From contig NW_024704742.1 in the NCBI RefSeq assembly GCF_018977255.1, positions 87,856,001 through 87,920,000 on the forward strand: a stretch of 64,000 nucleotides of DNA, in the 5' to 3' direction. The DNA is from Callorhinchus milii (Eukaryota). Positions 12,827 through 64,000 of the stretch are shown one piece after another. A model generated the notes under the pieces. That model was given only the letters and a program-made list of their open reading frames with translations, ran no database searches and was not told where the DNA came from. The first letter of the stretch is position 1. Each line of letters begins with the position of its first letter. Position numbers and translations under genes: made by a program.

Positions 12827-13049
12827 CTTGCCTTCCTGACCTCCAGGAACAAATGTTTCTGCAGCAACGTTAGCTATAGCCTTGATCACAGGTTGCACAT
12901 CACCAAGAGCACAGCCCAGAATATCTGCTACGATGACACTGGTTGCATTGTTCATCACCACTTCACGAGCATTCTCCTGCAGGTATTCCAGTAAAGCTGG
13001 TGAAATGGCCTCCAGCAGCTCATGCCGGCGGACTTCTGCATCCTTCTTA
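12827..13049 (-). CDS. PUM3: PUM3 exon 15: (S)KKDAEVRRHELLEAISPALL...FVPGGQEGK
   Basis: Within ORF 12809..13120; actag acceptor, GTAATG donor, 223 nt, phase 2->0. Confidence 0.96.
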
Positions 13050-14183
13050 CTAGTGTAACAAAATAAATACACTATGAGAGACGCTGCAGTTATTTCTACC
13101 CTGTGCCTCAAATAAAACACACCTACAAATTTTATTACATTCTTTGGTGTCAGCCAGCTCAGTTAGCGGCACTCTCGCCTCAGAGTCAGACGGTTACGGG
13201 TGAAAGCCCCGTATCAAAACTTGGAGGTCATAAGAGTCTAAAGAGCACTGCATTGTTGGAATTGCAGTCCTTCGGATAACACATTAAACCGAGTGCAAGT
13301 CAAAGTCCTAACATGGAGCTTGACCCCACAACCTTATGATTCAAAGTCGAGAGCACTACCAACTGAGCCGGGTTGACACATCCCTTAGGCTGAAAAATAG
13401 AAAAATATAAAAAAAACAATACAAATAATCTGAGGATTCACTTGACAATTATTAAATAGACTATTTCTCAAGATTTTATCAATGGAAACATCAAAATATT
13501 CAGAAATAATTCACAATAAATGAAAGGTTCCAGATATTAAAATATACAGTGTTTGCTTTTGCAGAAGCTGCAATTTTTAATTTGCTCTTACTAACTAAAC
13601 ACCAACATAAAATAGCAAACCAATGTGATATCTGAATTAAATTACACCGGCAAATTTCAGAATTGCCATGGTTTCATCCTATTATGACTCGAAGATCTTA
13701 CAAATCTTTGTATTTAATACACAGTAACCTTATTTTAATGCGATGTTTTGGACCCAAACAATTAAGACAACCGGTCCCAATAACTGCTTCTGGGTCGTCA
13801 GGTGCTCCTAATATTCCTTCCTGTGAGACGCACACTTCCTTTACAAAGTAACATCAGCTGTGCTTCCTTCACATAGCAAGTAATGCACAGGAAGTGATCT
13901 CAGCAGAGCCCAGACAACTTTGAAGGTGGCCATTTTTAGTATTGGAAGTTGGGAGTACTGTGCCTCCAGGGAAGTGTGCAGTGCAGACAACTGTAGGCAA
14001 ACCTGAATTCAGCCAAAGCACATTCAAACGGGGGCAGGGGTGTCTGCACATGCACAATCCTCAAGTTAAATGATCGTTTCAAAACAGTTCCATTAAAACT
14101 AAGAGAAAATCCTGAGATTGAAGATCAGAAGTACTTGTCCCTCGTTTGCTGCCACAAGAAATATAACGAATACCCACCCTTAC

Positions 14184-47211: not shown

Positions 47212-47224
47212 TCACTCGTAAGAA
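47212..47224 (-). CDS. CARM1L: Candidate CARM1-like terminal coding bases (S)SYE*, followed by 3' UTR with AATAAA at 47010-47005
   Basis: catcaacag acceptor after a pyrimidine-rich tract; phase-2 join gives FFSSYE*; alternative endings exist. Confidence 0.4.
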
Positions 47225-48225
47225 CTGTTGATGATAAAATAAAATGGAGAGGGGAAAGAGAGAGAGAGAGAGTGAGAGGGTTGAACTATTTTCACCTGAT
47301 TCCTACTCAAAGGTTTATTCTACTAATAGAACAGGTTTTTGAGGGGGTTTTAAAGCCCTTTTGCCATTGGAAAAAAAACCTTTCTTGACTTTAAAACAAC
47401 AACGAAAATCACATTTGTACAGTGCTCTACAGTCATGGATGCGCACCCAAGCTGGGGGTGCACATCTTTGACTGTCCCAACAACAAAAAATACTCAATTC
47501 ATCGCTGTGCACAATTGGTTGTCGGGTTTCGCCCACGAAATATACAGCCAATCCACTTTACAGTATATTCTACAAAGCACTTTGAAACATCTCAATGTCA
47601 TAATAAGGCACTACATCAAATGCAAGGATTATTATTATTATTATTGTTGACAAAATTACTTCCCTTCCTCCAACACCGCACCTGGAAAAGTCTCATCTGT
47701 AAGGACTGCTAAAGCATCTTAACTTGTGTTTTTTCCTAACAGGATTCCCACCGGCCTCTGTAAGAACTGGCAGGGAGCACACTTCCACACTTCCAGATTA
47801 ACACTTCCTGTTAATCGATTCATATTGTTTTTTAAGGAATCCTGGTAGAATTTCCGCAAATTCGATTCCACTGATTCTCTCTTGAGAACCCCATAGATCT
47901 GTACTCTTGCTCTCAGGTTTCTGCTTTCACCATCTCCCCAGGGATGCCTGTTCCATAAGTTTACTACTTACTCACTGAAGTAGTGTCAGCTAACCACTAT
48001 TTTTTCACAGAGCTCGTTTTGCTTCTCAGTCTTTTGGTGATGTCCCTCCATGACACACCTTGGCTTGTCACCTGTTTCTCAATGAACAAATATGCCGCGA
48101 CAATCCACTCTTAATGCTTCTTTTATATAAGCCAGCCAGGAGCAGCCCTCCTCCCGCACAGCCCAGCCTGGCGTTCTCACCCTGCATGCTCACATTTTAA
48201 GCAAATACACCATTGGAGTGCTCAC

Positions 48226-48315
48226 CTGAAGAAGGGATTCTTTAAGTCTAGTATGTTGCCAGACTTGAAGCCCGTCTGGTCCACAATAGCCATGATGTGA
48301 ATGTCGTAGCTCTGT
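48226..48315 (-). CDS. CARM1L: CARM1-like exon: (R)[29 protein letters not shown]
   Basis: gtgatag acceptor, GTGAGC donor (unspliced read-through gives AGG TGA = R stop), 90 nt. Confidence 0.94.
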
Positions 48316-49815
48316 CTATCACACAAAGCAGAGGGAGACAAGGGTCAATTATAGTCCACTTTCCACTCAGGGTTTCCACATATATTCCACATATTTGCCG
48401 GTCAGAGAGGGAGAGGTCATGGAACATTTGCCAGGAAGGGTGGTTGAGGCCATGACACTGGACTCATATGAAAACAGCTTGATGCTGTGATCTGGGGATG
48501 GTAGGGTGGATTTTCTGGAAGAATGAGAAAAGGGCCTTCTTCATTCAAACTAATCTTATGATAGGAAGGGACCATTCAGTCCCTCAAACCTGTTCTGATG
48601 GTTTACTAGATTATGATTGATCTTTTAATACCATATTCCCCTCCCTCCCCACCCAACATACACCCATTTATCTGTTCCCTTATTTTGCAGGTATCTAACA
48701 AGCTGCTTTTTAAACATCCCAATTGCTTCTGTGCCCTTCCAGCAATGGACGGCTTTTGTGGCAAACCACAAATACACCGTCACTACATTCTGCAGCTATG
48801 TAACCATTCTTATTACAGCAACAACAACAATTTGTTTAAGGTTTCGGGGGGTAGCGGCTGAAAGCACGACTGTCGATAATGCCCATCATCATTACAGTAA
48901 ATGCTACAAAATGCTTTGAAGTCTTTTGACAACATGATAAGATCCTAAGTCAAATTAAAGGATTAATGTTAATAAATTATATTTAGATTGTAGCTTTGGA
49001 AGTGTAGTAAAGTGTTGATGGATTACAAAGAAATAATGTAGCAGTGCTTCTAGGAATATCTCGGTGCCTCCTCCTCCTCCCCTCCCTACCGGGAAGGGGG
49101 AGGAGTTAATTTAGGAGCCCACCCATTCTATTCCCAAATGAAACTCACATGCCCCTCCTTCACAAACCCAGGAACGTGATTCAAACGTGAAATTCTCTGT
49201 CACTAACTACTGTTGAGATAATCTGTAAATTCCTTTGATTTTTTGGGGGAAGTCAGTCGGGTGTTTGACACGTGTGGAAACCCATCACAATGCTTAAGAG
49301 TATCCAAACCAAACTGAGAATTCCATGCATCCCACCTACACGTGGAAATTGTTGGAATGGAATGTGCACTCTCTCCCTGGAGGGAAGCATCCTGCGAACC
49401 TAATTCTGGAAAGTATTTTGCCAGGAGCAGGTTGCCAGGAGCCAAGGCTTGAGGACCCCAGAGTGTGCGTTGGGGTAACTGCTGGAGTCTAACCAGCTAA
49501 AACCGCATCACTTGCAATTGATATTGGTTGTCCAGCTAGGATCACCCTACCAGTTAGGGCTTTGGCTTGCAGAAGTTATGAACTTGAAAACGAGGGATGT
49601 GAAATGGTCAGGAGCCTGGCGTTAGAACAACTGGTTTGTGAAGATCTTGACGTTCAACTGCAGTAATACCGTGCTGCCCTGCGTGTGGATAATTATAAAG
49701 GAGCCATTGTCCAAACCTTTACGTCTCTCCGTCCAGAGGCAAACACGGAGACAAGGCTCGGTGGCGGGGGGTGGGGATTGGTGAGATTGGCTACAGTTGC
49801 CCTTTCAGTTCTTAC

Positions 49816-49953
49816 CTTTTATTGGCCACCAGCAGGACTCTCCCTGAGAATGTTTCTCCAGCTTTGGCAAAGAGCGGGGTCTGGAGCAGGCAACGAACCT
49901 GATACCAGTGTGTCAGGGGTTCTGTGGGAGATGTGGAAAGCCAGACTGTCTTT
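49816..49953 (-). CDS. CARM1L: CARM1-like exon: (Q)[45 protein letters not shown]
   Basis: Within ORF 49812..50030; cccatcag acceptor, GTAAGA donor, 138 nt; THW loop. Confidence 0.96.
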
Positions 49954-51107
49954 CTGATGGGGGTAAAGAAAACAAAATAAGATATTATTTTAGGGGGAAA
50001 ATGCATTCCGCTATAAAACAACTGCAACATAAGAACTCCCTTCGATCGGTTGCTTTTTAACGTGTAAAGGAGGGAAACTGTTGTTCAGATAGACAATGTA
50101 CCTCTTTAATTATACACAATTTCTTCATGTAAAATAGGAGAGAGACAGAGTGTGTGTGTGTGTCTATGAATCAGAGAGTTTTTGATTATTAATTTTTTTT
50201 TAGATAACATTCGTAGAGTGTGTAGCTATTACAGGAGATGTCTTTCATCATATTTGTAAATATTTTTGTCATCGATATGTGTAAACGTCTATATGGTTTG
50301 TAGTTTGAACATCTCGTATAGACGTATGAATAAGGACTTTTGATTCACCCTGTATTTGAGCGCGTGTCTGTGTATGTGACAGATAGAGCATGTGACTGTG
50401 TGTGAGTGTCAGTGTGTGTGTTTGTGTGTTGGAGAACATGTGTTTGTTTTCAGAGTGTGAGAGAAAGAAAGTGTTTTTGAGAGTGTACGTGCAAGATAGA
50501 GTGTGAGAGAGTGTGAATGAGTGTGCGCCAGTGAGCGTGTCTATCCATCAACATATGTTGGACTTTTCACCCCAGCAATTCCTCAGCTGCCATCATATAT
50601 ATTGATTCGCAACCCACACTGTGCTGACTTGGTCTCAGCAGCACAACCTCAATGTGGGGTCCATCTGGTTTCACTCACACCAGATACACTGAAGATGACT
50701 GAAGGAAGGTTTGGGGTAATTGCACACAACCTAACGCTAAACGTGGACCCCACTCGTCTGGGCAACTTCAGTGATGAAAACTAGGGGCGCACAAAGTTCA
50801 TACCGAGTAAATCCCTCGCGGAAATGATCCGTATCCTACTCCTTTCCCTTCCCCCATGTGCCTGGAAACAGAATGTCAATCGAGCCAGCCCTCTTTGGTG
50901 GTCTCGGTAGTCCGGTTCCTGAGCCAGGCGGGTCCGCAGTACTCCAGGGCACTGCTGATCACAGCACAGCCAGGCTGGCTCATCGGCAGGACGTGGAAAG
51001 GTAAACCAGTCATTGGTAGCCCGGAATTATCCCACTCAACTCCTGTTAACCCTCCAAGTTATTATCTCAGGGGCCCCCGGCTTCAGAATAACTAAAGATC
51101 TCCACAT

Positions 51108-51450
51108 TTCTCTCTTTCTCTGTGCCTCTATCAATCTGTCATGAACTCTCTTTGTGCCTCTCAATATTTCTCTCCTGCTCTTTAAGTGCCTCCTTCAATC
51201 TGTGTGCATTTTTGTGTTTTCTCTGTCTACGTTTCTTCCACCCTCTGTGTCTCTCTTTCCCCTTGTCTCTCTCTGTTTCCCCTCAGCTCTCTCTGTCTCC
51301 CCTCATCTCTCTTCCCTTGTCTCTCTCTCTCTCGCTCTCTTCTTTCCTTGTCTCTCGTTTTCTCCCTATTTCTTCATCCCTCTCGGCTCTTTCCTCTTCT
51401 TCCGCTCTCATTTTTCTCCTCTCAGTGTTTTGTTTCTGGCTCTCCCTGTT
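51108..51450. repeat. CT-rich polypyrimidine low-complexity tract
   Basis: Direct reading. Confidence 0.85.
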
Positions 51451-51593
51451 GTATGATGACATGTTTGGGTGGGGAATCAATTCGATGCGTTTGCCATAAA
51501 TCCTATTCAATAAATCCCATAAAGACAGACAGCTAAGTGACCACAGGGGGGAGGGGGGTGGGGGGTGTCATAGAGAATATTTACTACACTTAC

Positions 51594-51683
51594 TGTGAGC
51601 CCACAAAGGCTACATCAAACCAGAAAGCCAAGCCGTGGACAAGACCAGACTGGAGAATGTGGAAAACAAAGGGAATCTCCATT
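51594..51683 (-). CDS. CARM1L: CARM1-like exon: (R)[29 protein letters not shown]
   Basis: ttctgcag acceptor, GTAAGT donor, 90 nt, phase 2->2. Confidence 0.95.
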
Positions 51684-52333
51684 CTGCAGAAACAAAGTGA
51701 AACAAAATCTTTGTGAAATACTTTGCACCGGAGACAAGAGACCCTGGAGAGCCTATTTATTCTGAATCACACTTCATTCCCCCCTCCCCCCACTTCATGA
51801 CTAACGCTCACACTCAACATTCCCAGCCTCTTGGGTTATTGTGCTGGGTTTTCCTGATTTTTGTTCAGTGCTATCCCCGCCCGCCTGTCCTTCAGGGGGA
51901 CAGCAATGCACTTTCTTCTTCCATCACACCATAGCTTTGTTTTATAGGAATGGCGGAAAAGGCAGGTGTGATTAATCCATAAATAAATAAAGAGAGGCTG
52001 AAGCAGAAGGACTGAGGCAGGAAGTTCCAGAACACGTTTTGATGCGATCTGTAGTCTGAAATTAAGATGCATCTAATTTCTATTTCTCCCACAAAAATAT
52101 GCAGTGAATCCACTTTACAATATATTCTGTGAAGCACTTTATGATGTCTCAACGATGTGATAAGGCAATAATATCAAATGGAAAGATTATTATTCTTATT
52201 TTATATGATACAGTGTACATTACAAAGGTAACTAGCTATTATTTAGTGTAGTATACAGCCTGGAAACTCACCAAGTCTGTACCGCATTTTCTTATCAATC
52301 AACAAAAGGTTCCTCCACCCATCATTTACTCAC

Positions 52334-52419
52334 CGGTGCAAATCGTCTTCTTTGGATTCCAGGAAATTCACAGTGTACTTGACAGAGCGCGCCATCAGAA
52401 TGACCACGTCAAAGGTATC
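52334..52419 (-). CDS. CARM1L: CARM1-like exon: [28 protein letters not shown]
   Basis: tgtttcag acceptor, GTGAGT donor, 86 nt, phase 0->2. Confidence 0.95.
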
Positions 52420-52511
52420 CTGAAACAGAAGAGACAAGACACCTTACACCCACAGGCCTGGGAACTTCGGGTCACTTCCCTACAAGAGTATGAGTCAATG
52501 GGATTGGAGGC

Positions 52512-53030
52512 TACAACAACAACTTGCATTTATATAGCATTCGGGGCAGTGTCTCGGAGCGCTTAACAGTGGTAGAGTTTGATGGTGAGCCAGGTGGAGG
52601 GAGGAGGAGACTGTAAACACGGTCAAAGAAGGTTTTCAAGTTGTGATCTAAAAGAGGTGAAGGAGGAGGCAAGGTGGATGGATTGGAGGAGAGAGGTTCA
52701 GAGTTTTGGGGTGTAGTGGCTGAAAGCATGGCTGCCAATGGTGGAGCACAGGGGACAAGGGACAAGCATGAGGTCAGAGCCAGCCAAGCAGAGGCAGTGG
52801 GTAATGGAGTGGGGAGAAAGCGGGTCGGAAAAATAGGGAGGTGACGTGAAGGGATTTGTAGACAAGTGAGAGGATCTTGAAATCGATCCATTCTGTGATG
52901 GGGAGCCATTGGAGCCTGGCAAGGATTGGTGTGATGGGGGTGCAGAGTTTTGTGCGGGTGAATATACGGGTGGCTTTTAGAGGTGAGGTGCAGACTGAGA
53001 TGATGGATCACACCTTAGGCGATGGTGGCT
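52512..53030 (-). mobile_element. L2 LINE 3' fragment
   Basis: TIGSHAFSHYTPKL and L2 tail. Confidence 0.8.
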
Positions 53031-53105
53031 TCTGAGCTGGATGAACAGGAGCGGGACATTTACCGTCCTGGGACTAATTCCCATTCAGTCAGTGGTCAGA
53101 CTTAC

Positions 53106-53187
53106 TACGATTGGCTGCTTGAAGTACTCTTCCACAGCCGCACTGCGGAGACTAGAGAGATTAATCCCGTGGAAACACTGTTGGTAC
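53106..53187 (-). CDS. CARM1L: CARM1-like exon: (W)[27 protein letters not shown]
   Basis: ctccgcag acceptor, GTAAGT donor, 82 nt, phase 2->0. Confidence 0.95.
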
Positions 53188-53420
53188 CTGCGGAGAGAGC
53201 ACAGAGATCATCAGGCAAGGCAGCTTTTAGTGCAGGGATATAATACTTGCATTTATATAGCGCCCTTCACGCAGGATAGCATGTCAGAGCACTGCCCACT
53301 GGCGATGCTGCATGATGAGCCAGGGAGACGGGAGAGGGGGAGACATGGTCGAAGAGGTAGTTCTTAAGGTGGGGCTTAAAGCAGGATCAGAGCTATTAAC
53401 ATAACTAAGCCCATTCAGAC

Positions 53421-53801
53421 CCAATAATAATAATCTTTGCATTTGATCTAGTGCCTTATCACGTCTTCGCGATGCCTCAAAGCGCTTCATAGAATATATT
53501 GTAAATTGAATTGACTATATATTTTATGGGTGAAATGCGGGAGCCAATTGCACACAGCAGTGTCCCACAAACAATTGTGGATTGAGTGACCAAATTATCA
53601 TTATTTTTTTAAAAGAAATTATTACCCCTGGAAAAGCGATCCGCCAATCAATTAACAACCGGTTACTGCTTACTGCTAGGTAAACAGTGGCGTGTGGAGT
53701 AAGGAAACTTGCCCAACGTTTTCCCCTGGCCAACCCAGGATTAAAACCCAGGTCTCTTGCTTGCGAGGTCAGTGCTCTAACCACTGAGCTGCAGGACTCC
53801 A
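53421..53801 (-). mobile_element. tRNA-derived SINE, long subfamily
   Basis: Full head-core-tail. Confidence 0.85.
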
Positions 53802-55134
53802 TGGTTAACATAATACTTGCAGCTTAACATCCAAACTGCCACTGAACTGGTTAGCCCCGAATTGGCCTCCTCTGTTTCGTGTCTATGATTCCTCTCTGAG
53901 GAATGTTTCCTCATGTCCTCTCTCAGGGGACGTGAGGAAACTAGAGGAAGGAGCACAGCAGCGTGACTGTGGAAGCAAACAGATCTGAAGCAGCTCTGTG
54001 TACCTCGGCTCTTCTCTCTAGCTCTTGTTTGCTTTCTGTCACGGTGCTGGGAGAACACACCAAGAGACTGCACCGACCCTGTGTTATTGTTGGGAAGTTT
54101 CCTTGAACAATCTTGAAGCTGCTTTCAGTGGGGCTCTCCTCAGATCAGCTTTCAGTCAGGCTCTATTCAATCTCCCAGTTGGCACTGGGTTCACTCAGAG
54201 TCTGTCAGTGTGATGGCACTCGGCACAGTAGCGCCTCCCCCTTCACCCCTCCGATCCTCAATCCCCCCCTCCGTTCGACCATAAATGGCCCTCACTTCAA
54301 CCCCTAGACACCTCTCCGCCCTTATCACTCAGCCCCCTCTCGACACCACTTTTCTGTTGACACCACTTTCCCCTTCCCCCAATTCCCCCTCCCAGTCCAA
54401 CACTGGGGCAGCACTGCATTGGTGGATGTACCATCCTTCAAATGAGACATTACACTGAGGCTCCCGTCTGCCTGTAGCGTTACTTGAAAAGGGACGTGTG
54501 TTTTGTCCCGGCCAACAATCTCCGCCCATGTAAACTGTCCACTTACCTCAAGGCTGTTTGTGCGCGCAAAATTATTGCCGTATTTGCCTGCAATATACAC
54601 AGTCACTACACTGGACAGCAATTGCCTGTGAAGTGCTTTGAAATGGTTTGACCTTACAGCCACCATAGACATGGGGTGATTCAGAGCGCAGTGAACGCCA
54701 GGAGCCTGTCTCTTACTGTGTCTTGGGGTATTTCATTGCTGTAAACATTTGTTTGGCTTCAAAATGAAGCTCCTCTATTCATGGACTGAGTACACTTTTC
54801 CTACCAAAGGGGTGGGGAAAAGGGACCACCCAGAAGGCATCCCTTATCCTGACGTTACCTACAGGCATGTTACGACTCAGTCCTCGTAATTTCCAAAATG
54901 CAGTGGACCGCAACCTTAGCGAGAAATCAGTTGCACAAAGCGTTCAGGCAAAGCGAGACAGATCATTCCTCTCTCCCACCTTATGTATTTTAGTGAAACG
55001 TTACCCAATTCCACTCAGTAAACAGCAGGCTGGCTTCCAACCATTCACAGAAAGGGGAACAACAAGCTTAACCAGATTTCTCTCTGTGCCCCTTCCCGTC
55101 ACCCCACCCCACATACACACACACAAGAACATAC

Positions 55135-55225
55135 CAGAAATTGGCCCTGGTGTAATGTTCCATGTAAAGCTGCTCGTCGGAAAACGGGGCCAAATGAACA
55201 TCACCGAAGGTGGGAAACATCATCC
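55135..55225 (-). CDS. CARM1L: CARM1-like exon: (G)[29 protein letters not shown]
   Basis: ttcctcag acceptor, GTATGT donor, 91 nt, phase 1->2. Confidence 0.95.
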
Positions 55226-55839
55226 CTGAGGAAATATACAGAGAGCAGAGTATAATAATAATAATAATTATAATAATAATCCTTGCATTTGATATAGCGC
55301 CTTATCACTACGTTGAAATGTCTCAAAGAGTTTTTTTTAAGGGATTATTACCCTGGAAAGCGATTCGCCAATTGACTAACAACCGGGTTCCTACTTCCTG
55401 CTGGTAAACAGAGGCATGTGGAGTAAGCAAACCTGTCTAAGGTTTCGCCGTGCCGGGGAATCGAACCCAGGAGCTGACCCATATGCTACAGGACTCCAAG
55501 AGTAAAGAAGCTGCCCCTCTGCTTAGCATCTGGACTGATTGCAAGTCAGTCAGGGTAAAACAGTGCATTGATCTCAATGTACAAGCCAACTAAAAGTTTG
55601 ACAAATTGACAAGCATAAAGTGTGCGAGGGCATTGCCCCCACTCCATCAGGGCTCTTAACCTTCGGCCTCCCTCCCCCACTCTGACACTTTGTGATGAAG
55701 AAATTACCTTCGATGGAATTATAGAGGTGATCTGTGTCCTGACACTAACAGAAATTCAGGATTTGCTCTATGTACCCAGCCTATTGGAGCATCCAAGAAT
55801 TTAGCAAATTAAAGTTGAATTTGGTCTTAACTCTGTATG

Positions 55840-56025
55840 CGTTGTGCTTACATGTGTCTGTGTGCGTGTATGTGTGTCTACGTGACTATGTGATGTGTGT
55901 TCGTGTGTGCACTTGCGTGTCTGTGTGCAAGCGTGTGTACATGTATCTGTGTGTGTATTCTGTTGCGTGTGTGTGTTCTGTGTGTATATGTCTGTGTGTA
56001 TATCTGTGTGTGTGTATATGTGTGG
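55840..56025. repeat. Degenerate (TG)n tract
   Basis: Direct reading. Confidence 0.85.
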
Positions 56026-56029
56026 GTCT

Positions 56030-56450
56030 CTCATCACACAGAGGATACAGTTCAAGATCGTGGTCCTCACCATCAACGCCCTCCATGGCATTGCTCATCC
56101 TTACCTCGGCGACTTTCTAACCCCCTACCAACCACCTGATCCCACCACTCAGCGGGCTCCAGCCAGCTTCACGTCCCCGCCTCGCCGGCCCACCTATTGG
56201 TGGGTGGGCCTTCTGCCACTCTGCCCCCACCCTCTGGAACTCCATCCCGCAGTCCCTCCACCTCGCCTCCTCCCTTGTCTCCTTCAAGACTCGTCTCAAG
56301 ACCCTCCTATTTGACCGTGCTCTTGATCACCCTCCTTCCCTCCCTGCCCTCCACCCTCCCCAACCCCGACTCCCAGCTCGGGTCCAAAACACTGACTGTC
56401 CAGCGCCTTGGGACGTCCTCCCGACGTGAAAGTAATTTTGTTGTTGTTGT
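56030..56450 (+). mobile_element. L2 LINE 3' fragment
   Basis: ITQRIQFKIVVLT...PYLGDFLTPY. Confidence 0.85.
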
Positions 56451-56507
56451 ATCTGGATATTTGCGTGTGTCTGTATATTTGTGTGTGTCTATATATATGC
56501 GTTTATT

Positions 56508-56539
<32 letters not shown>

Positions 56540-56782
56540 CGCAGGAAGCTGACCTGTCAGCACCAGACGTGTAATGACCGGTTTCCTGTGGATCCTCGGT
56601 ACGCCCGGGACACCAGCATACACCGGTTATATCCAGACTTGTGCAGTACTGTATAACGGGTTCTGAGTGTGTACCATCATAATCAATCTCACCCGCTCAC
56701 CTGAACTTGAATCAGGTGTCATTGACCCCCCACACAGGCCTGCCGTTTCGCGACGAGTAGAGTTAGGTCCGAGTGCACCTAC

Positions 56783-56960
56783 CGTTTGGCTTCAACCACT
56801 TTTTGGCGTGGAGATAACTCTCAATCCTCCTCTCGTGAAATAACAAATAGCCCATAGGTTCCGAGATAATGATGTCCACCTTTTCGGGGATAGAAATCTC
56901 CTCGATTTTCCCTTCCAGCACCATCACCTGTTCGGAAAGGTTATTGCTTTTCACCAGTAT
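56783..56960 (-). CDS. CARM1L: CARM1-like exon: [59 protein letters not shown]
   Basis: Within ORF 56763..56987; tcttcag acceptor, GTAGGT donor, 178 nt; double-E loop. Confidence 0.96.
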
Positions 56961-57819
56961 CTGAAGACATGAAGAGAAGAACAGCATCTCAGGACAAATA
57001 GGAGATCACAATGTCTGTTGACCAACTCACACTGTGCCGATTATAATATATAATACTCCTTGCATTTGATATAGCGCCTTATCACGTCTTCTAGATGTTT
57101 CAAAGCGCTTCACAGAATATACTTTAAAGTGAATTGACTATATATTTTGTGGGGAAACAGAAGCACAGCAGTGTCCCATAAACAATCATGGATTGAGTGA
57201 CGAAATTATTATTATTATTTTTTGGGGAGGTATTATTACTACTGGAAAAACGATCTGCCAATTGTCTGACAACCGGGTTCCTTTCTCACATTTGGTCTAC
57301 TTACATAATTTCAGTCACATTTACACTGCACCACAATAGACATTTATACTGCACCACCACTGACATACTGGGAGGCACATATACGATAAACAAACAAATA
57401 TACTACAAACAAACAAAGACTGAGAATACAAGCAAGAACATTTGAATCTCGCTCAACCTATCGCGAGTTCCTTGTATAAGATATTCACCGTCCTCAAGTA
57501 GCCCTACCAAAGTAGACCTGATATTGTAATTGTGGTTTATATAGAGCATTGACACTCACAATAAGGTTGAGTAACACACCCTGTCCGAGCTTCAGTAATT
57601 GCTCCAAACTACAAGAAGGACCATCATGGACAGGTCAAGTTACATTTCAAATCACTTTTCTCCTGAACTTTGCTCAATTATATAACCTTCATTTTCTAAA
57701 CAAAGTTACTGCTTCCAACATTTAATTCCTTGACACTAACACCCCATTTAATAACAGCACTTGCGTTTGATGTAGCGCCTTTGAATGTTCAATCGACTTG
57801 AAGTGCTTCACATTAATTA

Positions 57820-58650
57820 ACAACAACAAAATTACATTTGTATAGCGCCTTTCACACTGGGAGGACGTCCAAGGCGCTGGACAGTCATTGTTCGGACCCG
57901 AGCTGGGAGTCGGGATTAGTGAGGGTGGAGGGTGGGGGGGAAGGAAAGTGATCAAAAGCACGGTGGATTAGGAGGGTTTTGAGATGGGTCTTGAAGGAGG
58001 AAAGGGAGGGGCGAGGCAGAGGGACTGCGGGATGGAGTTCCAGAGGGTGGGAGCAGAGTGGCAGAAGTCCTGCCAATGGTGGGACAGGGGAGCCAGGGGA
58101 CATGAATCAGACCAGAGCTCGCTGAATGGAGGGAGGGAGCAGGTTGGTAGGGGGTTAGGAGGTCGCAGAGGTAGGGAGAGCAAAGCCATGGAGGGCTTTG
58201 AAAGTGAGATCCAGGATCTTGAACTGTATCCTCTGTGTGATGGGAAGCCAGTGGAGTCGGATGAGGATGGGGCTGATAAGAGTCACGGAGCCTGGTGCGG
58301 GAGAGGACACGGGCTGCAAAGTTATGGATGATCTGCAGCCTATGGAGGAATGAGTTGGAGAGGTCAACAAGCAGGGAGTTTGCGTTGTCAAGCTTGGATG
58401 TTATCAATGCGTGTATGAGGGTTTTCGCAGCCTGTGGTGTGAGACAGTGGTGGAGTTGGGAGATGTTGCGGAGGTGGGGGAAGGCAGAGCGGGTCATGGT
58501 ACGGATGTGGGGTAGAAAGGACAGTTGAGGGTCAAACAAGGCGCCAAGGTTCTGGACTGGCTTAGTAAGGTGGAGTGTGCCACTATGGATGGTGATGCTG
58601 TCAGTGCCTGAGTTGTGGAGGCGCTGACGGGAGCCAAGCAGGAGGACCTC
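57820..58650 (-). mobile_element. L2 LINE 3' fragment
   Basis: ORF 57952..58539 FDPQLSFLPHI...LIHALITSKLDNANSLL; LHWLPITQRIQFKIL. Confidence 0.9.
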
Positions 58651-61196
58651 CTAATTGGACCGAGGCCAACAACAAAAACAACTTATTATAGCATTTATAT
58701 AGCGCACTTCATGCCGGACAGGGTTCTCAGAGCACTTAATTATTAATTGCTGAATGTATATTTTTGTGGGCAAAGGCAGGAGCCAAGTAATGTCTCACAT
58801 ACAGCCTTGAAGTCAATTACTAATTTTTCTGGGGTGTTGTTGGCCATTATGACTTGAGAAATTTTCTTCTCTTTTCGAACAGTGCCATGGGATCTTCAAC
58901 ATCTACCTGGACAGGCAGATGGGACCTCAGTTTAAAGTCTCATTGAAAGGATTTTACAATCCTTTGAAAACAAAAAGCTACTAAGCTAGTCAACAATAAC
59001 TTGCACTTATTAGCTGTTTTTCAAGTTGGATGAACATCTTGAAGTGCTTAAATGAGAGACTAAACTAAGCATTGGCAGCCTGGCAAACTCAGTAGCACTC
59101 CCACCTCGGAGTCAGAAGGTTGTGGGTTCAAGCCCCATGTTGGGACTTTTAACTCAAACTCCAAGCTGCCACTCCAATGCAGTGCTCGGGGTGGGGAGGT
59201 GCTTATCGGAGGTGCCATCCTTTAGATGAGATGTAACAAATACACAGTCACTGCACTTCGCAGTAAATCCTGTGTAGTGCTATGAGATGTCCATCCCGAC
59301 ATGAAAGGCACTATATAAAAATGCACGTCTTAAGCATTGTCATCCAGAGTTGACATCTCTTTATAAAGCAAGAATGAAAAGAGGGCCTGACAGCCACCCT
59401 AGTTACAGCTTTCTCAGTAATATCTGAAGTGCAAAAAGTAATAAACAAAATAGCGGTGGGGCCAAGCCAGCAAGCTGCCTATAGGGAGAAAAGATCTTCT
59501 GTGGGATTATAATAATAACAATCCTTACATTTGAAAGAGCGCTTTACCATGTCACTGAGACATAAAATAAATACAACAAAGAAATTTTGGTGAGGCTAAA
59601 AATGTATGAAAATATATCTCAAAGTTCTTCACAGGATAGACTGTAAAGTTATGTTTATTAGATTATGGTGGTGTGAAGTACGTTTAATAATTCTTCCAGG
59701 AATGATTTCTGGCAATAAACTACAGCCTCCTTTATTCACAGTGCTGAGTGAGCCACTACATCAACCAAATGAGACAGATGTTGATATTATAAAACAGTGC
59801 AGCTGCCACAGACCAGTGCAGTCAAACAGACGACTGTGAAAACCACAGAGAAACTAGACACCGGGTGAACAGCTGCTGGCAGCAGCTAAAGGAGGCAGCA
59901 ATATCTTCACCAACTTATTGCACTAAAAGTTAAACATTTCCTTATGATATAAAACAATAATCATTGTATTTGATATTGTACTTTATTACGCTCTCCACAG
60001 CGATGAAGTGAGTGACTGATTTTATTGGGGTGATTGTTGGCAAGGACACTTCCTTCACTTTTCAAACAGTGACACGTCCACCTGAACAAGCATACAGGAC
60101 CTCGGTTTGAACCCAAGACCTCTGACTCAGAAGTGAGACTGTTACTAACTGAGCCATGCGACCATCTGCATATTTGTGTGTTTAAAGCATGTGCATGTAT
60201 ATATGCGCTTGACAGCAATTGCTCAAGACAAAGTTCTGTACGAAACGCAAGATATATCGTCAGCCGATATCCAAAGGTCTTTTGTAATGAGTTCAGTCAG
60301 GTAACTGATTTATTTCCCACCATCTCCTGCACTCGAGTGGAACAATGCTGACCAGCCAAGCTTGTTGGTATTAGTGTGATACCTGTATGTACAAAACATC
60401 TGTGAAATTTGCTTTCTTTTTAAAAAAATCGAAAACTGCAAGCCTCAAAACACACTGCGGTATCTTTCTGGAAAGGCTAAGGTCTTGGCCTGGACATCTG
60501 GAAAAGGTTTATCTTACTTCACCTTGTTGGCTGACGGCTGACAGGACTTGCCTGACCGTGAAGCCCCCTCTCCTGTAGGGCATCGGCTGCTTCCTGTTTA
60601 TTCACGTGCTCTGAGTACACGTGGTTGTGCTCGGGTTGTGGATGAGTCACATTGCTGATTCACTTGAGCAGTAGAGTGGCCAGTCCAGGCATCTAAAGCA
60701 ATGGGCTGAGAGAGGCCAGTAAACCCCCAAACTATAGTACAAGCTACAAGTGACTGCACAAGCTGTAAACCACAGCACCAGCTACTGTGGCCATGACCCT
60801 TTATAACACGGTGCTTTAAGTCCACAAAAAGAGACCTCGTGCTACACAGGTCATTTTATAATAATAATAATCCTTGCGTTTGATATAGTGCCTTATCACA
60901 TCGTTGAGATTTCTCAAAGCGCTTCACAGAATATACACAAGTGAATTGACTACATTTTGTGGGTGAAATGCGACAGCCAATTACGCACAGCAGTATCCCA
61001 CAAACAGTCATGGATTGAGTGACCAATTTTTTTTTGAAGGGCTTATGACTGACCCCCGGAAAGCGATCCATCAATCAACTAAGAACAGAGATTCTATTTA
61101 CTGTTAGGTAAACAGAGGAGTAAAGAAACTTGCCTAAGATTTCACCCTGCCTGGGAACCAAACCCAGGTCCTCCCGCTTGCTAACCACTACGCTAC

Positions 61197-61522
61197 GTGG
61201 AGTCCTGTAGCTCAGTGGTTAGAGCACTCGCTTTGCAAGTGAGAGACCTGAGTTCAATTCCAGGCAGAGGGCGAAACCTTGGGCAAGTTTCCTTACTCCA
61301 CACACCTAATAATAATACCTCCAAAACCAAAAACAATAATAAATTGGTCATTTTCAATCTATGACTGTTTGTGGGACATTGCTGTGCGCAATTGGCTGCC
61401 GCGTTCGCCCACAAATATACAGTCAATTCACTTTACAGTGTGTTCTGTGAAGCGCTTTGGGACGTCCTCCCGACGTGAAAAGCGCTATATCAAATGCAAG
61501 GATTATTATTATTATTATTATT
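61197..61522 (+). mobile_element. Young tRNA-derived SINE (short subfamily)
   Basis: Same structure, (TTA)n tail. Confidence 0.9.
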
Positions 61523-61638
61523 ACAGGACTCTATATCAAGTTGCTCCAGGACTACAGTCCGGTTCCTCAAGTCGCCAATGATCACATTAACGTGTTGCGG
61601 GGAGACTGTGTTAAAAGGTATTGCACGTGTCCGTGTTA

Positions 61639-61854
<216 letters not shown>

Positions 61855-62422
61855 TTACTGTGTGCCAGTTTACACACCGGATAGAAGGGCAGAGGAGAGC
61901 TTTGCACTTTTGTTGGCAGTTGAGGGTGGCGCTATTATGTACCTCATCTGGGCACCAACAGATGGCAGTAGAGTGATGGGGCACAGGTCTGAGGAATTCT
62001 CCACCTCAACCACAATGCTGGGCTGCTCCCCTTCATCCCACTGGTGGATTGGTAGCCCCAAAGGCTTGTGGTATAAAATAGGGGCACTGGGGAGACAATC
62101 ATGGGGACGCTTCAGAGTCAATCATGAGGGATTGTTGGGAGCCAATCATCGGGGTGCAAGACAGATAATCATGGGGTCCCTCAAGAAATGTCCCGATTTA
62201 TATAGCCAGTCCACCACTGACCACTGAAACCCCTCCGAAGAAGCTGCACTCTTTTCTCCCATCCAACAATCTATCGGTGGAATTTCCACGTGTAGGTGGG
62301 ATGCATGGAATTCTCAGTTTGGTTTGGATACTCTTAAGCATGGTGATGGGTTTCCGCATGTGTCAAGACACACTACTGACCAGATTTTTTTCCCCTCTCC
62401 TGTCAAGCTCTCCCAAACTCAC

Positions 62423-62527
62423 CTTATCTTTGAAATCCACATGGTTCTCCAGTATAGCTCTCTGGTACGTGGCTGTCCCGATATAGTCCTGCAGCGTGTT
62501 CTGTTGTTGTGATAAACAGCCATGAAA
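62423..62527 (-). CDS. CARM1L: CARM1-like exon: [35 protein letters not shown]
   Basis: ttctcttag acceptor, GTGAGT donor, 105 nt; aligns without gaps to CARM1 [35 protein letters not shown]. Confidence 0.93.
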
Positions 62528-63312
62528 CTAAGAGAAAAAGAGCATTGCCGTGTGGCATTATTTCCTGCAGGATGAGACAGGACATTCAGGGTTGTTTGGT
62601 CTTGTGGTTTTGACAAAGCCATAGACACATGAACATTTACGGAAGGAAGTCTCTCTGCCCAATGGAGCCTACTGTCCATTCAATCCCACTGCCCAGCCCT
62701 ATCCCTGCAACCCTTCAAGCCTCTATCTTTCATGTACTTGTCTACTACCCTCTCGAAACCCGCAATGGATTCTGCTTCTCCCATCTTACTTGGAAGAGCA
62801 TTCCACGACCCAACAACAATTTGAATGAAAGAGAATCCTCCTAAGCTCTCCTTTCGCTCCTTGCCTTTATTTACTTACCAGTAACACTGAGAGCTTGAAT
62901 TTCCGAGATTTCCAAAAGGAATTGGTAAACAGGGAACATACAGATACCAGATCTGTCACAGGCTGACCCTCCTCCTCAGTTTCCACTTCTGGATTGCAAC
63001 TGCTGGGACATCGTGTCCGACCGGAGGTTCAGATCCCTTATTTACCAATCCACAGCCGATCACAGATCTGTACTTCTTCGCTTACCTCACACTGAGCTGT
63101 ACGCTCCCAGTCCCAAGCTCTCCACTGTTAGCTCATTCGAAGTCTGCAACTTGCATTTGTATAGTGCTATCAAAATGAAAGAATGCCTCAAAGCACTTTT
63201 TTAAAAAAAAACAAAGAATATGGAGCTAAAGGTTATTCGTAAGTAAGAGGAGATAAATTATAAGATAGTCAGTCGGATTTCTAATAGGAAGTTTAGGAAG
63301 ATAAAGTTTCAG

Positions 63313-63690
63313 TTATATGGAGAGACTAGAGAGGATGGTATTGTTCTCCTTAGAACAGAGAAGGTTAAGGGGAGGTTTAATAGAGGTGTTCAAACTTATG
63401 AGGGGTTTTGATAGAGTAAATAAGGAGAAACGGTTTCCTCTGACGAGGACCAGAGAGGAGTCAAGGAGAATTTTTTTTACCCACAGAGAGTTGTTATGGT
63501 CTGGGATGCATTGCCTGAAAGGGTGGTGAAAGCTGATTCGATGGTTGCTTTCAAAAGGGAATTGGATATGTACTTGAAAAGGAAAAATTTGCAGAGCTAT
63601 TAGGGTAAGAGCAAGGAGTAGGACTAGTTGGATAGCTCTTTCAAAGAGCCGGCATAGGCACAATGGGCCGAATGGCCTCCTTCTATGACT
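63313..63690 (+). mobile_element. CR1 LINE 3' fragment
   Basis: LFSLEQRRLRGGLIEVFKLMRGFDRV and CR1 3' UTR ATGGGCCGAATGGCCTCCTTCT; smaller CR1 pieces near 17010-17290(-), 22140-22330(+), 43370-43600(-), 48400-48560(+), 62640-62850(-). Confidence 0.85.
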
Positions 63691-64000
63691 GTATGGTTGG
63701 TGAAAGGGTGGAACTTGCTTCAGGAAGCTGCAGATGAGGCAAAAAGTATCAATGTATTCAAGAGAAAACTTTATGCATACTTGAGGGAGAGGGTATAGCA
63801 GGGGTGGGAGCTCTCTTGTAGTATAAACCCCAGCATGAACGAGTTGGACTGAACAGTCTGCTTCCGTGCTGTATCACTATGTAACTCTTTGTAAGATGGT
63901 AAATAGGACGTAGAAAATAAACCCAGAATAGTTGCACATAAGCCAAGACAGTATGACCAGAATGTGCAGGTTCAGGGGTTGTTAAACGTAATCTTTGGGA

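What the first reader, a model, noticed from the sequence alone, without database searches (positions are those of the whole stretch)
62423..62527. CARM1 paralog with substituted SAM-binding helix residues (Y154H, M163T, R169G): candidate PRMT pseudoenzyme
Seen: the exon reads [26 protein letters not shown] versus CARM1 [26 protein letters not shown]. The changed codons are CAT (62524-22), ACG (62497-95) and GGG (62479-77). Established: in mouse CARM1 numbering, Y154 is the second Tyr of the YFxxY lid, M163 corresponds to PRMT1 M48, and R169 corresponds to PRMT1 R54, which binds the SAM carboxylate; R169A is the standard enzyme-dead CARM1 mutant. Inference: the changes fall on catalytic positions while neighbouring structural residues, splice sites and reading frame are preserved. 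That pattern fits a protein kept under selection without methyltransferase activity (scaffold, reader, or dominant-negative heterodimer partner for CARM1) better than random decay.
Basis: partly seen in the sequence, partly recalled or inferred. Interest (0 to 1): 0.85.

Follow-up and report, generated by a model that had tools for sequence, protein, structure and literature searches.

The report
Catalytically degenerate CARM1 paralog, elephant shark
The elephant shark's second, short copy of the arginine methyltransferase CARM1 has uniquely lost several residues that hold its cofactor and substrate, while the rest of the protein is well conserved, so it is probably an inactive enzyme kept for another job.

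Summary
Exon 62423-62527 (minus strand) reads [18 protein letters not shown]... with CAT, ACG and GGG exactly where stated.

The gene is the short "CARM1-like" paralog (carm1l) of Callorhinchus milii. The canonical CARM1 lies on another contig and keeps Y, M and R.

The changes are specific to this lineage. Y154 and R169 are unchanged in every one of 118 other vertebrate CARM1/CARM1-like cluster representatives that has a residue there, and M163 in all but one. All three are unchanged in 56 further CARM1-type proteins.

Five of the six changes at 150 near-invariant core positions hit 15 literature-named cofactor or substrate-pocket residues (P about 3e-5; 0.001-0.03 under stricter lists).

The gene is otherwise intact. 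All splice sites are AG/GT, the GxGxG motif, double-E loop and THW loop are kept, and contigs with exon-only alignments exist in two studies. Its protein branch is no longer than those of sharks and rays.

Best reading, at about 0.5: a methyltransferase-dead or severely crippled CARM1 paralog kept under purifying selection. Neither selection (dN/dS) nor enzyme activity was tested. Other chimaeras could not be examined.

The parts
62423..62527 (-). The coding exon of the finding, CARM1 residues 153-187. It covers the end of the YFxxY lid and helices alpha-Y/Z. It carries Y154H (CAT 62524-62522), Y156C, M163T (ACG 62497-62495), M164L and R169G (GGG 62479-62477).
   Evidence: AG/GT flanks. Phase 0 at both ends.
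61666..61776 (-). Exon with SAM-binding motif I ([13 protein letters not shown]), intact, and YAVEGS (E215 kept, A216G).
56783..56960 (-). Double-E-loop exon, [19 protein letters not shown]258 and E267 are kept. N266H is CAC 56837-56835, M269R is AGG 56828-56826 and L270I is ATT 56825-56823.
   Evidence: M269 is M in 118/118 and 56/56 other sequences.
55135..55225 (-). Coding exon ([31 protein letters not shown]), start of the dimerisation-arm region.
53106..53187 (-). Coding exon ([26 protein letters not shown]).
52334..52419 (-). Coding exon ([28 protein letters not shown]).
51594..51683 (-). Coding exon ([29 protein letters not shown]).
49816..49953 (-). Exon with the THW loop ([12 protein letters not shown]), intact. 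H415 and W416 are kept.
   Evidence: An exon-only contig piece in run X11.
48226..48315 (-). Coding exon ([29 protein letters not shown]).
47212..47224 (-). Last coding exon start: it completes S and encodes SYE plus the TGA stop. The protein ends here, without the long C-terminal tail that canonical CARM1 carries.
   Evidence: polypyrimidine tract plus AG acceptor. P0002 ends ...FFSSYE.

Best explanation
This is an exon of carm1l, the short (about 460 aa) vertebrate paralog of CARM1/PRMT4, in Callorhinchus milii. In this lineage the protein keeps the CARM1 N-terminal domain, the Rossmann core with GxGxG, E215, E244, both double-E glutamates, the THW loop and the oligomerisation subdomain.

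It has replaced six otherwise near-invariant residues that form the cofactor lid and the arginine pocket:
- F138I lines the cofactor site.
- Y154H is the second Tyr of YFxxY, which fixes E267.
- M163T and M269R are the two active-site methionines.
- R169G removes the salt bridge to the SAM carboxylate.
- L270I is adjacent to M269.

Most likely mechanism (inferred): SAM is bound weakly or not at all, and the substrate guanidinium is no longer positioned, so methyl transfer is lost or strongly reduced. The folded, dimer-competent protein persists under purifying selection for a non-catalytic role. Candidate roles are substrate or partner binding through its PH-like N-terminal domain and beta-barrel, and/or homo- or hetero-oligomerisation with canonical CARM1 in the manner of a pseudoenzyme or prozyme.

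Shown: the substitutions, their uniqueness, their clustering, gene integrity, and contigs that look spliced. Inferred: loss of activity, selection, and the non-catalytic role.
For: **The substitutions are real and unique**

**What the residues do, from papers (passages read)**
- R169 makes an ionic bond to the ligand carboxylate (PMC6917500).
- R169A is inactive in vitro and in cells (PMC7722926).
- YFxxY (Y150, F151, Y154) hydrogen-bonds E267. M163 is a steric buttress. F138, M164 and A216 line the cofactor site (PMC4655611).
- The adenosine moiety interacts with Y150, E215, E244 and M269 (PMC9469100).
- The two conserved methionines M48 and M155 of PRMT1 position the target arginine (PMC8619983). 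Their equivalence to CARM1 M163 and M269 is my positional inference.

**Clustering**
- Six Callorhinchus changes fall on 150 core positions that are at least 99% conserved in 118 other sequences. Five fall on the 15 conserved pocket positions (hypergeometric P = 2.9e-5).
- No other sequence has more than two such hits.

**The rest of the protein is constrained**
- The Callorhinchus end branch is 0.13, against 0.064-0.18 root-to-tip for five elasmobranch orthologues.
- Relative-rate counts are 15 versus 6-16 in the core and 4-5 versus 5-9 in the N-terminal domain. None is significant.
- Apart from E431A and S218A, the changes outside the pocket are conservative: Q140E, Q179E, V189I, D333E, R337K, K438R.

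**Gene integrity**
Ten in-window coding exons all have AG/GT boundaries and reproduce P0002 exactly. Pfam finds CARM1 N-terminal, methyltransferase and PRMT_C domains. The AF2 model matches CARM1 structures, with TMt up to 0.90.

**Transcription and splicing**
- A 2016-letter contig of run X9 lies on the window only at 56782-56960. Contigs of 1241 and 516 letters of run X11 lie only at 56782-56960 and 49816-49953.
- The same depths appear at exon positions and zero at adjacent intron positions. The two runs come from two studies.

**Orthology**
The carm1l clade has support 100 and the chondrichthyan subclade 99. A PUM3-type CPL-domain ORF lies at 12809-13162(-), matching the gar gene order pum3-carm1l (PMC8042750).
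Against: - No direct test of selection was possible. No orthologous coding DNA was available, so there is no dN/dS.
- The pocket list is partly post hoc: F138 and M269 were looked up after I had seen them change. With stricter lists P rises to 0.0012-0.026, and to 0.0089 without those two.
- GxGxG, E215, E244, E258, E267, H415 and W416 are all intact, so residual SAM binding or catalysis cannot be excluded. His at 154 could still hydrogen-bond E267. A new Arg at 269 might partly replace lost contacts.
- Only one holocephalan sequence was available, so the age of the changes is unknown.
- The run kinds "RNA?" are guesses.
- AF2 confidence does not distinguish this protein from an orthologue with intact residues.
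- There is no protein-level or functional evidence.
Confidence: 0.5

Rival explanations
1. Early-stage gene loss. Catalysis was lost recently and the whole gene is now drifting. The reading frame and splice sites are intact only because too little time has passed in a slowly evolving genome.
For: - The changes are seen in a single species.
- carm1l has picked up hits on conserved pocket residues in other lineages too: 7 of 69 carm1l-type representatives against 0 of 50 canonical ones, P = 0.019. This suggests weaker constraint on this paralog.
- No dN/dS is available.
Against: - Uniform decay should hit the 150 near-invariant positions evenly. Observed: 5 of 15 pocket positions against 1 of 135 others.
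- Five independent hits on 15 codons imply a long period of relaxation there, yet the rest of the core shows no excess over sharks and rays.
- The frame and 20 splice junction sites are intact.
- Contigs that look spliced exist in two studies.
- Of six listed exon differences from the related organism B, five are synonymous. That list is incomplete.
Confidence: 0.2
2. Still an active methyltransferase with a remodelled pocket. The loss of R169 is compensated, for example by the new Arg at 269 or by water and backbone contacts, possibly with altered cofactor affinity, product type or substrate range.
For: - Loss of Arg at 169 and gain of Arg at 269 co-occur. Both are unique among 118 + 56 sequences.
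- All residues usually held to do the chemistry are retained: E258, E267, H415, plus GxGxG, E215 and E244.
- Purifying selection on the rest of the core would also fit an enzyme.
Against: - R169A alone abolishes activity in the assays read (PMC7722926).
- M269 is described as contacting the adenosine end of the ligand, not the carboxylate (PMC9469100; S272 one turn later bonds adenine). Direct replacement is therefore not obvious.
- Five simultaneous hits on lid and pocket are hard to reconcile with a preserved mechanism.
- A deposited isoform inserts 54 aa inside YFxxY.
Confidence: 0.17
3. Assembly or sequencing artefact: the true codons are canonical.
For: Contigs, not raw reads, were laid. 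The difference table is cut.
Against: - There are six separate unique changes in three exons.
- The same residues appear in three deposited protein models.
- An X1 contig covers the exon with one other letter in 996.
- Word shares of nine runs from three studies fit full exon content.
Confidence: 0.02

Closest known systems
CARM1 / PRMT4 (canonical type I protein arginine methyltransferase)
   Same: - About 75% identity to solved CARM1 catalytic domains, with TMt up to 0.90.
- Same CARM1 N-terminal domain, Rossmann core and PRMT_C subdomain.
- Same exon structure at this exon as the canonical copy on C29.
   Different: - Ends right after the catalytic core (...NPFFSSYE) and lacks the long C-terminal tail.
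- F138I, Y154H, M163T, R169G, M269R and L270I.
Vertebrate carm1l ("CARM1-like") orthologues in sharks, rays, gar, teleosts, coelacanth, amphibians, sauropsids and many mammals
   Same: - Orthologous by tree (clade support 100 and 99) and by the pum3 neighbour.
- Same length class, and 81-87% identity to elasmobranch orthologues.
   Different: The orthologues keep Y154, M163, R169 and M269. Exceptions at other pocket residues are listed under Noticed in passing.
CARM1 R169A, the laboratory enzyme-inactive mutant
   Same: Loss of the same arginine side chain.
   Different: This is a natural allele fixed in the reference genome and accompanied by five further pocket changes. Its activity has not been measured.
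TbPRMT1 prozyme (PRO) of Trypanosoma brucei
   Same: A PRMT paralog that keeps the PRMT fold and the dimer interface but cannot bind cofactor. It works by heterodimerising with the active paralog (abstract of 10.1101/776112; PMC10908127 passages). This is the model for how a dead CARM1 paralog could act.
   Different: - PRO lost cofactor binding through loss of the eta2 3-10 helix in the Rossmann fold. Here point substitutions hit the lid and pocket.
- A different PRMT subfamily and kingdom.
- No evidence here that canonical CARM1 needs or binds carm1l.

Membership tests
CARM1/PRMT4 subfamily | CARM1 N-terminal (PH-like) domain plus class I methyltransferase core plus PRMT C-terminal oligomerisation subdomain | tested here: met
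   Pfam PF11531 (E 1e-27), PF13649/PF06325 and PF22528 (E 3e-20) on P0002. Best structural matches are CARM1 chains.
carm1l orthologous group (short CARM1 paralog of jawed vertebrates) | Groups with the short CARM1-like proteins rather than canonical CARM1, with conserved gene neighbourhood | tested here: met
   carm1l clade support 100, chondrichthyan subclade 99. A CPL-domain (PUM3-type) ORF lies at 12809-13162(-), against the gar order pum3-carm1l. The canonical copy sits elsewhere, on C29.
Catalytically competent type I PRMT | Motif I GxGxG and the acidic residue that binds the ribose (E215) | tested here: met
   VLDVGCGSG and YAVEGS are present.
Catalytically competent type I PRMT | Double-E loop (E258, E267) and THW loop (H415, W416) | tested here: met
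   [11 protein letters not shown] and LTHWYQ are present.
Catalytically competent type I PRMT | YFxxY motif (Y150, F151, Y154) | tested here: not met
   It reads YFQFH. Y154 is Y in 116/116 and 55/55 other sequences. The motif definition is from PMC4655611. One deposited isoform also inserts 54 aa between Q152 and F153.
Catalytically competent type I PRMT | Arginine that salt-bridges the SAM carboxylate (CARM1 R169) | tested here: not met
   Gly (GGG 62479-62477). R in 117/117 and 56/56 others. Role from PMC6917500. R169A is inactive.
Catalytically competent type I PRMT | Two conserved active-site methionines (CARM1 M163 and M269; PRMT1 M48 and M155) | tested here: not met
   Thr and Arg here. 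Role from PMC4655611 and PMC8619983. The PRMT1-to-CARM1 equivalence is my positional inference.
Pseudoenzyme / prozyme of the PRMT family | No cofactor binding and no methyl transfer | not testable with these tools
   Inferred from the substitutions only. It needs SAM-binding and methylation assays.
Pseudoenzyme / prozyme of the PRMT family | Retained under purifying selection and acting through binding (for example to the active paralog) | tested here: inconclusive
   Protein-level rate and clustering support retention. No dN/dS was computed. Binding to CARM1 was not tested.

The most novel reading that the evidence does not exclude
Callorhinchus carm1l would be a vertebrate PRMT pseudoenzyme: a SAM-blind CARM1 paralog kept for tens to hundreds of millions of years in chimaeras. 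It would act as a regulator or partner of canonical CARM1, or as a decoy for its substrates. More broadly, the conserved job of the unstudied carm1l paralog across vertebrates would be at least partly non-catalytic. That would explain why ducks, an owl, a frog and a sucker fish also show hits on catalytic residues while canonical CARM1 never does.
Probability: 0.2. Interest if true: 0.7.

Novelty: new variant of a known kind. Interest (0 to 1): 0.5.

Why it matters
Dead paralogs that regulate live enzymes are known for PRMTs only in kinetoplastids, as the TbPRMT1 prozyme. A natural, lineage-specific enzyme-dead CARM1 paralog in a vertebrate would separate the scaffolding functions of the CARM1 fold from its catalytic functions. 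That question is otherwise addressed with the engineered enzyme-dead knock-in (PMC10474102).

It would also draw attention to carm1l itself. This second CARM1 gene is present in most jawed-vertebrate groups, including many mammals. One full-text search for "carm1l" found 10 papers. In the two I opened it appears only as a synteny marker and as an RT-qPCR target. I did not open the other eight; at least some seem to use the string for other things.

If instead the protein is active, it would show that the carboxylate-binding arginine of PRMTs is dispensable. That would interest enzymologists.

Tried and rejected
- I used the 59-aa double-E-loop exon instead.
- A search for short fragments (32-104 aa) of that exon, meant to catch other chimaeras, listed 43 hits, all at most 78% identical. 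No other holocephalan was found. Searches likewise show nothing between 100% and 93% or 86% identity except Callorhinchus itself. Whether the changes are shared by other chimaeras stays open.
- The cluster members are Callorhinchus models, plus two unrelated short Salmonella fragments that look misclustered.
- Earlier findings of this scan returned nothing.
- No RNA holder is listed. The kinds "RNA?" are guesses.
- ** (crude selection test).**
  - Organism B (run X16) differs from the window at six listed places in exons 48226-48315 and 49816-49953. Five are synonymous and one is R to K.
  - Only 9 of the 23 differences of the relevant contig are listed.
  - I therefore do not count this as a dN/dS estimate.
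- ** (coverage).** The intron repeats swamped the joint and loose-end tables, and no exon-exon joint is listed.
- ** (AlphaFold2).**
  - The model of P0002 has low confidence (below 50) at residues 115-139 (the lid), with dips at the double-E and THW loops.
  - The control orthologue P0007, with intact residues and the same alignment, shows the same pattern (110-141, 238-242, 390-393).
  - So this says nothing about the substitutions.
- The better fit of the model to apo CARM1 (rmsd 2.6-2.9) than to liganded CARM1 (4.3-9.2) is for the same reason not evidence.
- **Not run.** I did not run complex prediction for a carm1l-CARM1 heterodimer.
- **Rejected readings.**
  - I considered that the substitutions are a general trait of carm1l. 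Searches rule that out.
  - I considered that the exon belongs to a processed or decayed copy. Introns, AG/GT sites and the full frame rule that out.

Full report
**1. The observation**

On the minus strand, window 62423-62527 is a 105-nt exon bounded by ...ctcttag| and |gtgagt. It translates to [35 protein letters not shown].

Against the Protein Data Bank it matches only CARM1 chains (21 distinct sequences, E about 2e-12). These read [35 protein letters not shown] over the same 35 residues.

Each is one base away from the canonical TAT, ATG and CGG seen in the second copy of the same genome.

**2. Which gene this is**

The window is G000:C1:87856001-87920000 of a 991-Mb genome. A search with the neighbouring 59-aa exon returns two 100%-identical proteins named for Callorhinchus milii: P0002 (461 aa, "CARM1-like") and P0003 (473 aa). 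It also returns orthologues of 457-460 aa in rays and sharks at 88-93% identity over that exon.

The canonical CARM1 of the same genome lies on contig C29, in about 6 kb. It reads [35 protein letters not shown] at this exon. Its protein is P0135.

A maximum-likelihood tree of 35 proteins puts the window's protein in a clade of short CARM1-like proteins (support 100). It is sister to five elasmobranch orthologues (support 99) and apart from canonical CARM1.

A PUM3-type CPL-domain ORF lies at 12809-13162(-). In gar, carm1l is listed next to pum3 (PMC8042750, passage).

The paralog is widespread. Coelacanth, amphibians, turtles, squamates, birds, monotreme, marsupial and many placental mammals all have 455-520-aa "CARM1-like" entries.

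**3. Anatomy**

Residues 135-461 of P0002 are encoded in the window by ten exons, all with AG/GT boundaries, and they reproduce the protein exactly:
- 62423-62527
- 61666-61776
- 56783-56960
- 55135-55225
- 53106-53187
- 52334-52419
- 51594-51683
- 49816-49953
- 48226-48315
- 47212-47224 (TGA stop)

Residues 1-134 lie upstream of the window, at C1:87920574-87920714, 87928031-87928180 and further.

A 162-nt cassette exon with AG and GT flanks lies about 1.7 kb upstream of the finding's exon, just outside the window (L003, about 238-399, minus strand). It encodes 54 residues (RRSG...EEALSQ). In P0199 (= UniRef V9KQS5 / XP_007890798) and in P0003 these are inserted between Q152 and F153, that is inside the YFxxY motif.

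Pfam finds the CARM1 N-terminal domain, methyltransferase domains and PRMT_C.

**4. What is changed and what is not**

I aligned P0002 with 118 other cluster representatives plus the orthologues. By my rule, 68 are carm1l-type and 50 canonical: carm1l-type means residue 156 is not Y, or residue 171 is A or T.

Retained in Callorhinchus: Y150, F151, F153, Q160, N162, G193, E215, E244, E258, M260, E267, S272, H415 and W416.

Changed, with a residue seen in no other sequence, at positions at least 99% conserved:

| Change | Others with the usual residue | Total with a residue there |
|---|---|---|
| F138I | 117 | 118 |
| Y154H | 116 | 116 |
| M163T | 116 | 117 |
| R169G | 117 | 117 |
| M269R | 118 | 118 |
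| L270I | 117 | 118 |

M269R and L270I are AGG 56828-56826 and ATT 56825-56823.

Other changes are shared with some taxa: M164L, A216G, and N266H (the last shared with the three rays).

In 56 further CARM1-type proteins of at least 250 aa (CARMER-named invertebrate entries and unnamed eukaryotic ones), the counts are Y154 55/55, M163 56/56, R169 56/56 and M269 56/56.

They are part of a larger set of six, and they belong to this lineage, not to carm1l in general. Five elasmobranch orthologues, gar and carp read FYG...NM[ML]...[IL]RT. The sixth elasmobranch model (P0008) lacks this exon.

**5. What these residues do (papers, passages read)**

- The ligand carboxylate forms an ionic bond with R169. 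The alpha-amino group bonds the G193 backbone, the ribose hydroxyls bond E215, and adenine bonds E244 and S272. Y154 and E258 bond 6'-substituents (PMC6917500).
- R169A is used as the enzymatically inactive mutant. It fails to methylate Pontin in vitro and in reconstituted knockout cells (PMC7722926).
- Y150, F151 and Y154 form the YFxxY motif. It stacks on the cofactor and hydrogen-bonds E267.
- M163 buttresses the substrate guanidinium.
- F138, M164 and A216 line the cofactor site (PMC4655611).
- The adenosine moiety interacts mainly with Y150, E215, E244 and M269 (PMC9469100).
- In PRMT1 two conserved methionines, M48 and M155, position the target arginine (PMC8619983). By position (two residues after the second double-E glutamate) M155 corresponds to CARM1 M269, and M48 to M163. 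That equivalence, and the PRMT1 numbering of the glutamates, are my inference and recall.

**6. Is the pattern decay or selective loss of the pocket?**

*Clustering.*
- Of 343 core positions, 150 are at least 99% conserved in the 118 other sequences.
- 15 of the 21 pocket residues named in the passages above are among those 150.
- Callorhinchus differs at 6 of the 150, and 5 of the 6 are pocket residues (hypergeometric P = 2.9e-5). This is the same as Fisher 5/15 versus 1/135.

*Sensitivity.* I looked up F138 and M269 after seeing them change, so I repeated the test with narrower lists:
- the passage only: 2 of 6, P = 0.026
- the passages only: 3 of 6, P = 0.0012
- all residues without F138 and M269: 3 of 6, P = 0.0089

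*Leave-one-out.* No other sequence has more than 2 pocket hits.

*Rate.*
- The Callorhinchus end branch is 0.13 substitutions per column. Root-to-tip for the five elasmobranch orthologues is 0.064-0.18.
- With seven bony-vertebrate carm1l proteins as outgroup, Callorhinchus-only versus elasmobranch-only changes are 15 (14 against Heterodontus) versus 6, 9, 10, 11 and 16 in the core, and 4-5 versus 5-9 in the N-terminal domain. None is significant; the lowest P is 0.078.
- Of the 15 core changes, 7 are pocket or adjacent: F138I, Y154H, M163T, R169G, A216G, M269R and L270I. The others are Q140E, Q179E, V189I, S218A, D333E, R337K, E431A and K438R.

Whole-gene neutral drift long enough to replace a third of the invariant pocket positions should also have replaced many of the other 135 invariant positions. 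Only one changed. This is the main argument that the fold is still under selection while the pocket is not, or that the pocket was actively remodelled.

It is a protein-level argument. No dN/dS was possible, because no orthologous coding DNA is reachable with these tools.

**7. Reads**

No run is on record as RNA. Nine runs of organism A from three studies are guessed to be RNA and hold 0.20-0.26 of the sampled words of 61666-62527. Four runs hold 0.76-0.95. Runs of a second organism B hold 0.11.

I laid four runs on 48000-64000:
- **Run X9.** A 2016-letter contig lies on the window only at 56782-56960.
- **Run X11.** Contigs of 1241 and 516 letters lie only at 56782-56960 and 49816-49953.
- **Depths.** The depths of the X9 contig (63) and of the 516-letter X11 contig (56.2) recur at positions in exons 48226-48315 and 49816-49953. 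Depth is zero at the adjacent intron positions listed. This is what spliced cDNA contigs look like.
- **Run X1.** A 996-letter contig covers 62342-63337 with one other letter.
- **The finding's exon.** No difference within 62423-62527 is listed for any run. However, 1095 rows of that table are not shown.
- **Organism B.** It differs at six listed exon positions, five synonymous and one R to K, and far more densely in the introns. Only 9 of 23 differences of that contig are listed, so I treat this as a hint only.

**8. Structure**

AlphaFold2 on a 41-sequence alignment gives mean pLDDT 79. The catalytic domain matches CARM1 chains (Foldseek E about 1e-46, TMt 0.80-0.90).

Low confidence at the lid and the active-site loops is equally present in the control orthologue with intact residues. 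It therefore carries no information about the substitutions.

**9. Mechanism proposed**

Shown:
- a structurally complete CARM1 paralog that looks spliced
- no carboxylate-binding arginine
- a broken YFxxY motif
- both active-site methionines replaced, one by arginine
- an altered adenine cap
- an isoform that inserts 54 residues into the lid

Inferred: poor or absent SAM binding and no productive positioning of substrate arginine, hence little or no methyltransferase activity. The protein would persist for a binding role. Candidates are partner or substrate capture by the N-terminal domain and beta-barrel, or homo- or hetero-oligomerisation through the conserved arm, by analogy with the TbPRMT1 prozyme (abstract; passages).

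My odds:
- about 0.5 for dead or crippled and retained
- 0.2 for early decay
- 0.17 for still active with a remodelled pocket
- 0.02 for artefact
- the remainder unassigned

**10. Comparison and novelty**

By domains, tree and synteny it is a member of the CARM1 subfamily and of the carm1l orthologous group. It fails three sequence features of catalytically competent type I PRMTs (YFxxY, the carboxylate arginine, the methionine pair) and meets three others (GxGxG with E215, the double-E loop, the THW loop).

A dead PRMT paralog acting through heterodimerisation is known in kinetoplastids. I found no description of a catalytically degenerate CARM1 paralog in a vertebrate. The one full-text search for "carm1l" gave 10 papers. 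In the two I opened, the gene is only a synteny marker or an RT-qPCR target. I did not open the other eight.

I rate it a new variant of a known kind and of moderate interest. It is a clean natural enzyme-dead candidate in one lineage, with the key tests (other chimaeras, dN/dS, biochemistry) still to do.

Noticed in passing
just outside the window: L003 about 238-399 (minus strand) = C1:87920238-87920399: A 162-nt in-frame cassette exon with AG/GT flanks encodes 54 Gly/Ser/Glu-rich residues (RRSG...EEALSQ). In P0199 (UniRef V9KQS5) and P0003 it is inserted between Q152 and F153, splitting the YFxxY lid motif. It is skipped in P0002.
   Followed up: partly
proteins P0149, P0127, P0138, P0126, P0147, P0112: Other carm1l lineages also carry hits on near-invariant pocket residues:
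- Mergus: N162I, E215H, H415R
- Anas: N162I, E215D
- Athene: M163I, E267G
- Pseudophryne: F138V, F151T
- Xyrauchen: E267D
- Pezoporus: S272T

Counting Callorhinchus, that is 7 of 69 carm1l-type representatives against 0 of 50 canonical CARM1 (P = 0.019). Some may be annotation or sequencing errors. N162I is shared by the two duck genera.
   Followed up: partly
protein P0008 (Stegostoma tigrinum isoform X2), alignment A1: This predicted shark isoform lacks exactly the orthologue of the finding's 35-aa exon. The skip of 105 nt is in frame.
   Followed up: no
one search hit list: The short CARM1-like paralog is annotated in many mammals (pangolin, cat, shrew, sloth, orca, bats, seal, rabbit, mouse lemur, naked mole-rat, armadillo, echidna, dunnart) as well as in birds, reptiles, amphibians, coelacanth and ray-finned fishes. 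It appears essentially unstudied in the library searched.
   Followed up: no
window 12809-13162 (-): An ORF with a CPL (NUC119) domain, E 7e-23. This is an exon of a PUM3-type gene downstream of carm1l on the same strand, and it matches the gar gene order pum3-carm1l.
   Followed up: partly
window 53340-53873, 56010-58679, 60816-61883: The introns of the gene hold very high-copy repeats. Summed contig depths reach 1e5-1e6 in all four runs, including organism B. Loose-end consensus near 61268 contains a tRNA-like GGTTCGATTCC-type box, which suggests a tRNA-derived SINE.
   Followed up: no
own genome, G000:C5:29795417-29795584 and C5:29824884-29825051, with C5:29791729-29791869 and 29821197-29821337; also C5:13777004-13777930: Two sets of PRMT-like exons about 29 kb apart have identical scores. 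They are either a tandem duplicate or an assembly duplicate of another PRMT gene. Separately there is a 450-aa open frame without introns, 33% identical to carm1l over residues 174-483, which would be a single-exon PRMT gene.
   Followed up: no
runs X16-X20 (organism B): A second organism holds 0.11 of the sampled words. Where laid, its contigs are close to the window in the two carm1l exons with listed differences (3 differences in each) and much more diverged in introns. It is therefore a close relative whose carm1l could date the substitutions.
   Followed up: partly
window 4888: A single N in the window.
   Followed up: no
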